From NCBI RefSeq assembly GCF_009914755.1, contig NC_060936.1: a stretch of DNA of 64,000 nucleotides. One strand, given 5' to 3'. Below the pieces are notes generated by a model. That model had not been told where the DNA came from, made no database searches, and was given only the letters and a program-made list of their open reading frames with translations. The position numbers and the translations under genes were made by a program. Positions within the stretch are counted from its first letter, which is position 1. Every line of letters begins with the position of its first letter. Below are positions 4,393 to 5,152 of the stretch, in pieces. Source of the DNA: the human T2T-CHM13v2.0 reference genome, Homo sapiens.

Positions 4393-5152
4393 AACACACA
4401 CATTCCTTTTTTTCCCCCATAATTTTGTGACTGGATGACTGAAAAAAAATGCTTTTAAACATTAATCCATCCATCCATGCATCTATGCATCCATGCATGC
4501 ATCCATCCATCCATCCAACACTCACTGCTGCTACTGCATGGGGATTCTCAACCTTATAAAAAAAAAGCAACTCTCCCTTTCCCTAACTACACCTTTCAGT
4601 TGATTGAGTCCCTGATGTCTTCCAGGATCTATGCCTGACCCTGGGATAGGATAATAAAGATGGTCTCTACCCTGAAGAGATGAGAAAGAAGTAGGTAAGT
4701 AATGGTGTAAGTTAAGGCTGCTCTGATAGCAGTGTCTGTTTTCTTCCCATTCTTCCCAACTTCAAATAGGATCCAGCCTGATAAACTGGCCTTGAGTAGC
4801 CAATACAAAAGTAAAATTTACAAGTTTTTTTTGTTTTTTGTTTTTTGTTTTTTTGAGACAGAATCTTGCTCTGTCACCTAGGCTGGAGTGCAGTGGTGCA
4901 ATCTCGGCTCACTACAACCTCTGCCTCCCAGGTTCAAGCAATTCTCCTGCCTCAGCCTCCCGAGTAGCTGGGATTACAGGCATGCACCACCATGCCCAGG
5001 TACTTTTTGTATTTTTAGTAGAGAAAGGGTTTCACCATGTTGGCCAGGCTGGTCTCGAATTCTTGATCTCAAGTGATCCGCCCACCTCAGCCTCACAAAG
5101 TGTGGGGATTACAGGTATGAGCCACCACACCTAGCCAACACACACATTCTTT
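4393..5152 (-). mobile_element. Alu (4825-5136) plus ~410 bp extra 3' DNA within a single TSD pair
   Basis: AACACACACATTC at 4393-4405 and 5137-5149; the internal segment matches 63928-64000. Confidence 0.8.

What the first reader, a model, noticed from the sequence alone, without database searches (positions are those of the whole stretch)
4393..5152. Alu-headed cassette carrying ~410 bp of apparent FGD6 intron DNA, inserted 59.5 kb away in NR2C1 intron 1
Seen: one direct repeat, AACACACACATTC(C/T)TTT (4393-4405 and 5137-5149), brackets a full minus-strand Alu (4825-5136) plus ~410 bp of non-Alu DNA 3' of its A-tail. The cassette's 3' end reads GGGGGAAAAAAAG. The Alu-side junction reads TAT/AAAG, resembling an L1 endonuclease site. 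Positions 4417-4487 match 63928-64000 in the same orientation (28 nt exact, CCATAATTTTGTGACTGGATGACTGAAA, continuing with small indels), and homology starts right at the cassette end. Removing the cassette leaves a plausible continuous old L1M-like sequence. Established: 3' transduction is common for L1 and SVA but rare for Alu, because Pol III stops at T4 runs. Several such runs lie directly after this Alu tail (4807-4816). Inference: the template was probably FGD6-sense Pol II intronic RNA or an RT template-switch chimera, inserted locally into the neighbouring gene. Priming could have used an intronic AATAAA (63971-63976, minus) or AAAGGA/AAAGAA microhomology.
Basis: partly seen in the sequence, partly recalled or inferred. 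Interest (0 to 1): 0.85.

Follow-up and report, generated by a model that had tools for sequence, protein, structure and literature searches.

The report
Alu copied with its downstream flank
An Alu element in an FGD6 intron was copied, together with about 400-460 bases of the unique DNA behind it, into intron 1 of the neighbouring NR2C1 gene, a kind of "Alu 3' transduction" that surveys of young Alus have failed to find.

Summary
The non-Alu DNA at 4417-4824 has exactly one other copy in the genome. That copy starts at window 63928 and runs past the window end. Behind it sits a minus-strand Alu at 64387-64690, in the same arrangement.

The FGD6 Alu has its own target-site duplication, AAAATTTACAA(G/A), on both sides. 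The NR2C1 cassette keeps only the tail-side copy (4813-4824). It starts at Alu base 1 (5136) and ends in a short A run. A new 16-nt duplication (15 of 16 matching, 14 nt exact) brackets it at an AT/AAAG site. So FGD6 is the source and NR2C1 the offspring, and the hallmarks are those of L1-mediated retrotransposition (about 0.85).

The template-switch chimera and the multi-copy repeat are refuted.

Which polymerase made the RNA is open. The start at Alu base 1 points to the Alu's own Pol III transcript (about 0.45). A shared T4 and a shared T6-or-longer run inside the carried flank, the FGD6-sense orientation and an AATAAA in the source point to Pol II intronic RNA (about 0.3).

The 59.5 kb distance in cis is unexplained and keeps a DNA-level templated insertion alive (about 0.12). 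Primate outgroups could not be examined.

The parts
4393..4408 (-). Tail-side (3') copy of the new target-site duplication, + strand AACACACACATTCCTT
   Evidence: 14 nt exact, 15 of 16 against 5137-5152.
4409..4416 (-). Terminal A run of the cassette. In sense, 4418-4406 reads GGGGGAAAAAAAG. It is not matched by the present source sequence, which reads GGAAAGGA.
   Evidence: Whether the A run is untemplated or a homopolymer expansion cannot be told without outgroups.
4417..4812 (-). Carried-along FGD6-intron flank (396 nt). It includes the (CATC/CATG)n microsatellite at 4465-4517, a sense-strand T9 at 4566-4558 and a T8 at 4449-4442.
   Evidence: the only other genomic copy is at window 63928-64374; 20 substitutions in 330 aligned flank bases. 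T runs.
4813..4824 (-). AAAATTTACAAG, the tail-side copy of the SOURCE Alu's own target-site duplication, carried into the offspring. In sense it contains a T4.
   Evidence: identical to source 64375-64386. The head-side copy at source 64691-64702 is absent from the offspring. T4 at 4816-4813.
4825..4855 (-). Alu A-rich tail with three C interruptions (A7 C A6 C A6 C A8 in sense)
   Evidence: The source tail has the same three-C pattern (A6 C A3 C A3 C A4).
4856..5136 (-). Full-length dimeric Alu body. It looks AluS-like by diagnostic blocks that I recall; no tool tested this. Base 1 is at 5136.
   Evidence: two Metazoa_SRP-like monomers on the minus strand; alignments to other window Alus end at 5136; 85.4% identity to the source Alu body.
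5137..5152 (-). Head-side (5') copy of the new target-site duplication, + strand AACACACACATTCTTT. The nick site in sense reads GTAT/AAAG.
63928..64000 (-). In-window start of the source locus in the FGD6 intron. The rest lies past the window end: flank to 64374, Alu duplication 64375-64386, tail 64387-64408, Alu body 64409-64690, second duplication copy 64691-64702. AATAAA (sense) is at 63976-63971.
   Evidence: L002 is G000:C12:95108530-95111875, which is window 62530-65875.

Best explanation
An AluS-type element inserted into an FGD6 intron (minus strand, window 64387-64690) and made its own duplication, AAAATTTACAA. Later an RNA was made that began at base 1 of that Alu. It ran through the Alu, its A-rich tail and the tail-side duplication, and about 450 nt further into unique intron DNA, to 63928.

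The L1 machinery reverse-transcribed that RNA by target-primed reverse transcription. The nick was at AT/AAAG inside an old L1-like repeat in NR2C1 intron 1, 59.5 kb away on the same strand. The result is a 731-bp insert (4406-5136) between 16-nt target-site duplications. This is an Alu-headed 3' transduction.

My preferred source of the RNA is the Alu's own Pol III transcript. It would have failed to stop at a T4 and at a T6-or-longer run. Priming would then have been on a downstream A patch or an added A tail rather than on the Alu's own tail.

Shown:
- the two-copy homology;
- the direction, FGD6 to NR2C1;
- the boundaries and the duplications.

Inferred:
- an RNA intermediate (about 0.85);
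- Pol III as the polymerase (about 0.45 overall);
- the mode of priming.

The flank divergence (K2P about 0.065) would put the event roughly 15-27 million years ago. That figure uses substitution rates I recall, not rates from a call.
For: - The unique flank has 2 of 2 genome matches, both on this chromosome. In one search, all listed hits other than the query itself and the FGD6 locus cover only the microsatellite.
- Homology runs without a break from 4417 to 5136 against 63928 to 64690, Alu included.
- The source Alu carries AAAATTTACAA(G/A) on both sides. The offspring carries only the tail-side copy, and its head abuts the new duplication. This fixes the direction and places the copied unit's 5' end at Alu base 1, where Alu Pol III transcripts start (recalled).
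- The new duplication is 15 of 16, with 14 nt exact. The background rate is 4.8e-7 per position pair.
- The site reads AT/AAAG and the insert ends in an A run.
- Three old L1-like paralogues run unbroken across a modelled empty site.
- Both Alu tails have three C interruptions.
- The Alu bodies share few private changes, so the source Alu was young when copied, as expected of a transcribed Alu.
- None of the copy Alu's 25 changes is A>G, so there is no editing signature of a long Pol II double-stranded RNA.
- The window holds no other low-copy local duplicate apart from one 67% pair of a dispersed repeat family, so this is not a region of general segmental duplication.
Against: - Two sense-strand T runs inside the carried flank are shared by source and offspring, so they were probably present at the time. 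One is a T4 eight nt after the tail, which also appears in the third copy of the source duplication. The other is T6 in the source and T9 in the offspring.
- In human cells T4 stops 75% of Pol III transcripts, T5 stops 95%, and T6 or longer stops all detectable ones (PMC5725217, section 6).
- The Alu is in the sense orientation of FGD6, as a Pol II template requires.
- The source has an AATAAA 43 nt before the end of homology.
- The 5' junction has 2 nt of microhomology (TT).
- The terminal A run is short. GGGGGAAAAAAAGGA can also be read as a stretched version of the source's GGAAAGGA.
- A random L1-mediated integration would land within 60 kb of its source with probability about 4e-5 (my arithmetic). 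Nothing in this model explains that.
- The case fails criterion (b) of Halabian et al. (bioRxiv 10.1101/2024.04.29.591526, whole text read). That criterion requires the terminator to lie downstream of the transduced DNA.
Confidence: 0.45

Rival explanations
1. Same L1-mediated retrocopying, but the template was Pol II RNA. It would be FGD6 pre-mRNA or excised intron RNA, polyadenylated at a cryptic site or primed on an internal A patch. Reverse transcription, or 5' end joining, would have stopped at the Alu's first base by chance.
For: - The Alu and flank are in the FGD6 sense orientation (gene table supplied with the finding).
- The internal T4 and T6-or-longer runs do not hinder Pol II (PMC5725217).
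- AATAAA lies at 63976-63971 in the source.
- The A run at the end is not matched by the present source sequence.
- The 5' junction has 2 nt of microhomology.
- A locally made nuclear RNA could make the 59.5 kb proximity less odd.
- The preprint states that Alu transduction by co-transcription in Pol II transcripts cannot be excluded.
Against: - The 5' end falls within 0-2 nt of Alu base 1. For a random truncation point that is roughly 3 in 700-1000 (my estimate).
- AATAAA is 43 nt from the end, outside the usual 10-30 nt (recalled). It is also absent from the offspring because of a 4-nt indel.
- None of the copy Alu's 25 changes is A>G, although an inverted Alu fragment lies about 630 nt away at 65325-65446.
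- The source Alu was young when copied. This model does not predict that.
Confidence: 0.3
2. A DNA-level local templated insertion with no RNA step, for example replication template switching or break repair. The 0.73 kb would be copied from 59.5 kb away in cis. The junctions would use microhomology (TCCTTT against TTCTTT on the left, CAA on the right). Synthesis would resume 16 nt behind the departure point, which would create the flanking repeat.
For: - Source and copy lie 59.5 kb apart, on the same strand and chromosome. That is natural for DNA-level events and has probability about 4e-5 for random retro-integration (my arithmetic).
- The left junction can be aligned as source AGTCC-TTT-CC-ATAA against copy ATTCC-TTTTTTT-CCCCC-ATAA. 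That reading also explains the one mismatch in the left repeat copy.
- The right junction shares CAA.
Against: - It needs several coincidences at once. One breakpoint falls exactly at Alu base 1. The flanking duplication is 16 nt, typical of L1 endonuclease events. The site is AT/AAAG. There is an A run at exactly the element's 3' end, which would require T3 to grow to T7 and C2 to C5.
- The window holds no other local low-copy duplicate of this kind.
Confidence: 0.12
3. An RT template-switch chimera: reverse transcription started on FGD6 intronic RNA and jumped to an unrelated Alu RNA.
For: Such chimeras are known for U6/L1 (recalled).
Against: The source locus carries the Alu, the same three-C tail and the tail-side duplication, all contiguous with the flank. 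No switch is needed.
Confidence: 0.02
4. The shared segment is a dispersed repeat family, or the flanking repeat is a chance match.
For: - Part of the flank (4465-4517) is a microsatellite with hundreds of genomic matches.
- The flanking repeat contains (AC)4.
Against: - The unique 305 nt gives 2 candidates and 2 matches in 3.1 Gb.
- The background rate for repeats of 13 nt or more is 4.8e-7 per position pair.
Confidence: 0.01

Closest known systems
3' transduction by L1 and SVA retrotransposons
   Same: The offspring consists of the element, contiguous downstream DNA from the source locus and a terminal A run, all inside one new target-site duplication. The source element is identifiable by the carried flank.
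   Different: L1 and SVA are Pol II transcripts that skip a weak poly(A) signal. Here the head is an Alu, whose Pol III transcript should stop at T runs that lie inside the carried DNA. Normal Alu priming is also on its own internal A tail, which excludes the flank.
Reported or suspected Alu transductions: an Alu monomer with a short 3' flank (Kojima) and the AluSx3-WaluSat composite (Hoyt et al.). I know both only from their description in bioRxiv 10.1101/2024.04.29.591526.
   Same: An Alu head followed by non-Alu DNA, both inside one target-site duplication.
   Different: This case is a full dimeric Alu with about 400 nt of single-copy DNA. It forms a single source-offspring pair in which both loci survive. 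The source's own duplication also shows the direction of copying.
Survey of 118,489 full-length AluY in T2T-CHM13 (bioRxiv 10.1101/2024.04.29.591526)
   Same: Same genome assembly and the same question.
   Different: The survey confirmed no transduction. It was limited to AluY and to at least 90% identity. It also required the T4 terminator to lie beyond the transduced DNA. This AluS-like case lies outside its scope and would fail the terminator rule.
Retrocopies of Pol II transcripts (processed pseudogenes, intron-derived retrocopies)
   Same: Mobilised by L1 in trans. Target-site duplication, A-rich 3' end, and possibly an embedded sense Alu.
   Different: Their 5' ends are transcript starts or random truncation points, not Alu base 1. 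No spliced exons are present here.
Polyadenylated Pol III SINE transcripts (B2 and other 'T+' SINEs). The passage on SINEC in PMC13141329 mentions a cellular poly(A) polymerase route. The B2 details are recalled.
   Same: This could reconcile a Pol III 5' end with an added A tail. The source has AATAAA followed 16 nt later by TTCTTTC.
   Different: Alu is not known to use this route. The copy extends about 27 nt beyond the TCTTT.

Membership tests
Alu (7SL-derived dimeric SINE) | Two 7SL-related monomers in tandem | tested here: met
   RF00017 matches on the minus strand at 5019-5135 (48.5 bits) and 4853-5000 (72.9 bits).
Alu (7SL-derived dimeric SINE) | Full length from base 1, followed by an A-rich tail | tested here: met
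   alignments to other window Alus end at 5136; 30-nt tail.
Alu (7SL-derived dimeric SINE) | Subfamily AluS | not tested
   Assigned only from consensus blocks I recall. No curated Alu library is among the tools.
L1-mediated (target-primed) retro-insertion | Target-site duplication of about 7-20 bp exactly bracketing the insert | tested here: met
   16 nt, 15 of 16, 14 exact. The right copy abuts Alu base 1.
L1-mediated (target-primed) retro-insertion | Endonuclease-type nick site (TT/AAAA-like) | tested here: inconclusive
   AT/AAAG, 4 of 6 against the consensus as I recall it.
L1-mediated (target-primed) retro-insertion | Untemplated poly(A) at the 3' end | tested here: inconclusive
   A7 in GGGGGAAAAAAAGG against GGAAAGGA in the source. 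By a crude measure, 12 of 40 window Alu tails are 8 nt or shorter, so a short run is not unusual.
L1-mediated (target-primed) retro-insertion | Empty orthologous site in outgroup species | not testable with these tools
   No other primate genome is available. Only a paralogue-based model of the empty site could be made.
3' transduction | Offspring flank is contiguous with the element at a single identifiable source locus | tested here: met
3' transduction | Source element has its own duplication, and only the downstream copy is carried | tested here: met
   source 64375-64386 and 64691-64702; offspring 4813-4824 only.
3' transduction | For a Pol III element: no T4-or-longer run inside the transduced DNA, terminator just beyond it (criterion b of bioRxiv 10.1101/2024.04.29.591526) | tested here: not met
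   a shared T4 and a shared T6/T9 lie inside. The next source T4 is 21 nt beyond the end of homology, at 63907-63904.
Segmental duplication (DNA-level) | At least 1 kb at 90% identity or more (convention as I recall it), with homology extending beyond the element and no retro-insertion hallmarks | tested here: not met
   0.73 kb, with homology ending at Alu base 1 and at the A run; no other local duplicate.

The most novel reading that the evidence does not exclude
The offspring landed 59.5 kb from its source because the L1 reverse transcriptase used an RNA that was still near its site of synthesis. That RNA would be either the Alu's own read-through Pol III transcript or a nascent or excised FGD6 intron. 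In other words, some retro-insertion happens in place and is biased by distance. If so, Alu-headed RNAs that pass a T6-or-longer run can be primed downstream of the Alu tail. Alu 3' transductions would then be found mainly close to their sources and among older subfamilies that surveys have skipped.
Probability: 0.1. Interest if true: 0.8.

Novelty: new member of a known kind. Interest (0 to 1): 0.55.

Why it matters
Alu is the most numerous human mobile element. One paper stated that Alu-mediated transductions had not been reported (PMC4862182, passage read). A survey of 118,489 young Alus in this same assembly confirmed none (bioRxiv 10.1101/2024.04.29.591526).

This pair gives a concrete case in which both source and offspring survive. 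The source's own duplication shows which is which. The carried DNA contains Pol III stop signals.

It therefore bears on three points:
- whether Alu RNAs with long 3' extensions can be mobilised;
- which polymerase makes them;
- whether survey rules such as 'no internal T4' and 'AluY only' hide real events.

The cis proximity, if it is not chance, touches on where in the cell templates are captured. There is no sign of any functional effect on NR2C1 or FGD6. Both sites are intronic, and no RefSeq functional element in the supplied table overlaps them.

Tried and rejected
- Paralogous empty-site test with the left flank. The left-flank repeat gave 2446 first-look candidates, of which 40 were scored. 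It ends near 4343, about 50 nt short of the insertion site. None of the 24 paralogous loci fetched carries the right flank next to it, so this test says nothing.
- Right-flank search. It gave only 5 weak paralogues. Three of them (L047-L049) align across a modelled empty site, which is modest support only.
- Private-variant test on the Alu bodies.
- A-to-I editing signature. There are 0 A>G among the copy Alu's 25 changes. This is weak evidence only.
- Length of the terminal A run as a discriminator. It is not informative.
- Papers on a local bias of L1-mediated insertion. I found nothing relevant. This does not show that nothing is in print.
- Search for templated sequence insertions. The listing held no relevant paper.
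- One search was a badly framed search and returned aluminium papers.
- The supplementary tables of the bioRxiv preprint were not seen. They list the candidate AluY loci and do not bear on this AluS-like case.

Full report
**What is there**

The + strand of 4393-5152 reads, in order:
- AACACACACATTCCTT (4393-4408);
- a short T run and then a C run (to 4416);
- 396 nt of non-Alu DNA (4417-4812);
- AAAATTTACAAG (4813-4824);
- the complement of an Alu A-rich tail (4825-4855);
- the complement of a full Alu body (4856-5136);
- AACACACACATTCTTT (5137-5152).

Rfam places two 7SL-like monomers on the minus strand at 5019-5135 and 4853-5000. Alignments to the window's other Alus end at 5136. The Alu is therefore complete, and its first base abuts the right-hand repeat.

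**Is the flanking repeat more than chance?**

The exact match is 14 nt, at 4392-4405 and 5136-5149. Across the window there are 37 isolated exact direct repeats of 13 nt or more at 300-1500 nt spacing. That is 4.8e-7 per position pair. Several of the 37 are themselves the duplications of ordinary Alus at about 300-320 nt spacing. The boundaries are fixed independently by homology to the second locus. With about 60 admissible position pairs, a chance match has p of about 3e-5 or less (my arithmetic).

**Where the non-Alu DNA comes from**

A whole-genome search with 4406-4825 found the query itself and one other place, C12:95109928-95110375, which is window 63928-64375. Every other listed match covered only the (CATC/CATG)n microsatellite at query positions 48-121. 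In that of 509 first-look candidates were scored, and 140 matches were not listed.

To escape the microsatellite I searched the unique part alone (4520-4824). It gave 2 candidates and 2 matches, the query and the FGD6 site. The 'multi-copy repeat' refutation therefore fails.

**The source locus has the predicted Alu**

With the window extended by locus L002, BLAST and MAFFT show unbroken homology from 4417-5136 to 63928-64690. This includes a minus-strand Alu with its tail at 64387-64408 and its body at 64409-64690. No homology exists beyond either end.

The source Alu is flanked by AAAATTTACAAG (64375-64386) and AAAATTTACAAA (64691-64702), its own target-site duplication. The NR2C1 cassette keeps the tail-side copy (4813-4824) and lacks the head-side copy. 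At the head, the new repeat begins instead.

Three things follow:
- FGD6 is the source and NR2C1 the offspring.
- The Alu in the cassette is not an independent insertion.
- The copied unit begins within 0-2 nt of Alu base 1 (both loci have TT before GGC in sense).

Both tails carry exactly three C interruptions. The template-switch chimera is therefore unnecessary and is contradicted.

**Hallmarks of retro-insertion**

In the sense of the element the structure is: GTAT / AAAGAATGTGTGTGTT - Alu - tail - old duplication - flank - TTATGG GGG AAAAAAA GGAATGTGTGTGTT.

This gives:
- a 16-nt duplication (15 of 16);
- a nick site AT/AAAG, which resembles the L1 endonuclease consensus as I recall it;
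- a short A run at the 3' end.

By a crude measure, 12 of 40 Alu tails in the window are 8 nt or shorter, so a short run is not unusual at this age.

The target lies in an old repeat. Three weak paralogues of the right flank (L047-L049) align without a break across a modelled empty site...GGGCA-CTCTCATACAYTGCTGGTGG... against ...GGCAACACACACATTCCTT|ATACACTGTTGGTGG.... I recognise that repeat as L1-like from memory only.

The repeat in the left flank is a different family and ends near 4343.

**Age**

Copy and source differ at 20 of 330 aligned flank bases (1 of 46 and 19 of 284; K2P about 0.065). There are also six indel events, and the microsatellite differs in length. The Alu bodies differ at 41 of 281 bases (K2P 0.167), of which 32 are transitions, as expected from independent CpG decay.

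With substitution rates that I recall (about 1.2-2.2e-9 per site per year), the flank figure suggests roughly 15-27 million years.

Against a consensus of 40 window Alus, copy and source share 10 variants, 2 of them outside CpG. The other 38 Alus share a median of 6 and a maximum of 11 with the copy.

Against a consensus of the 20 Alus most similar to the copy, they share 11, where the background maximum is 9. A further 13 are private to the copy and 25 to the source. Choosing that subset by similarity to the copy biases the comparison.

The source Alu had therefore gathered at most a handful of changes before it was copied.

**Which RNA?**

For the Alu's own Pol III transcript:
- The 5' end is at base 1.
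- The source Alu was young.
- None of the copy Alu's 25 changes is A>G, although an inverted Alu fragment lies at 65325-65446.

Against it:
- The sense strand of the carried DNA holds a T4 eight nt after the tail. This T4 is in source, offspring and the third copy of the source duplication, so it is ancestral.
- It also holds a run that is T6 in the source and T9 in the offspring.
- In human cells T4 terminates 75% of Pol III transcripts, T5 terminates 95%, and longer runs terminate all detectable ones (PMC5725217, section 6).
- Read-through of weak terminators is widespread (PMC3141230, abstract only), but T6 is not a weak terminator.
- The next source T4 lies 21 nt beyond the end of homology (63907-63904).

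For a Pol II FGD6 intronic RNA:
- The orientation matches FGD6.
- Pol II is indifferent to T runs.
- The source has AATAAA at 63976-63971. It is, however, 43 nt from the end and missing from the offspring because of a 4-nt indel.
- The 5' junction has 2 nt of microhomology.

Against it: the 5' end would coincide with Alu base 1 only by chance, roughly 0.3-0.5% by my estimate.

The two penalties are of similar size. I put Pol III at about 0.45 and Pol II at about 0.3.

**The unexplained point**

Source and offspring are 59.5 kb apart on the same strand. For a genome-wide random integration that has probability of about 4e-5 (my arithmetic). Ascertainment within a 64-kb window explains why only such a pair could be noticed. 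It does not explain why one exists.

There are three possibilities:
- It is luck.
- The template was captured near its site of synthesis.
- The copy was made at the DNA level.

A DNA-level reading is possible. The left junction can be aligned as AGTCC-TTT-CC against ATTCC-TTTTTTT-CCCCC, and the right junction shares CAA. This reading must treat the Alu-base-1 breakpoint, the 16-nt duplication, the nick-site motif and the A run as coincidences. No other local low-copy duplicate exists in the extended window. I give it about 0.12.

My searches found no paper on a local bias of L1-mediated insertion.

**Comparison with what is known**

Tica et al. 2016 wrote that Alu-mediated transductions had not been reported (PMC4862182, passage read).

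Halabian et al. examined 118,489 full-length AluY in this same assembly (bioRxiv 10.1101/2024.04.29.591526, whole text read):
- 633 had a distant 3' duplication.
- 24 had candidate sources.
- None survived curation.
- They note two earlier hints, an Alu monomer with a short flank and the AluSx3-WaluSat composite.
- They state that events from AluS or AluJ, or by Pol II co-transcription, cannot be excluded.

The present case lies outside that survey's scope. It is AluS-like by my recall, and BLAST identity with gaps is 86-87%. It would also fail the survey's terminator rule. I therefore file it as a new, unusually well-resolved member of a known but very rare kind.

**Verdict**

- Interest is moderate to high for students of mobile elements.
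- No functional consequence is evident.
- Primate outgroups would settle most of what is open, and they were not available here.

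Noticed in passing
window 4018-4362 (and 10184-10553, inverted): The left flank is a dispersed old repeat. It gave 2446 first-look candidates genome-wide, and the scored copies are 71-79% identical. The repeat ends consistently near 4343. A 67% inverted copy lies at 10184-10553. I did not name the family.
   Followed up: partly
window 63886-63927, minus strand: Just beyond the source end of the homology, the FGD6-sense strand reads AAAGGACTGAAATCCTTCCCTTTTCTCTTTCCTCCCTGTAG. It has a branch-point-like CTGAA, a long pyrimidine tract and an AG 41 nt after the homology end, so it looks like a 3' splice site. No RefSeq exon is listed there. If it is used, an excised intron's trimmed 3' end would fall close to the end of the copied segment.
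   Followed up: no
window 4465-4517 and 63975-64082: A (CATC/CATG)n microsatellite inside the carried flank is about 50 nt longer at the source. It matches hundreds of loci genome-wide and swamps searches that include it.
   Followed up: yes
window 19914/20216, 25513/25821, 33572/33894, 40433/40737, 58610/58930, 62948/63248: The scan for direct repeats of 13 nt or more picks up pairs about 300-320 nt apart. These look like the target-site duplications of ordinary Alus. They serve as a positive control for the method.
   Followed up: no
window 17434-17446 and 18185-18197: An isolated 13-nt direct repeat, TATCTGACAATAT, at 751 nt spacing. It could be chance, or it could bracket another composite insertion.
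   Followed up: no
window 4875-4934 (+) and 4951-5002 (-): Sub-threshold Rfam matches to mir-3135 and mir-1268 lie inside the Alu. They are well below the gathering scores and probably reflect Alu-derived miRNA families (my inference).
   Followed up: no
window 4796-4810, 4703-4708 and source 64293-64311: Offspring and source differ by indels of 15, 6 and 19 nt. The 6-nt and 19-nt differences create or remove T4 runs in the source (64268-64265 and 64303-64300). The present count of T runs is therefore not the ancestral one.
   Followed up: partly
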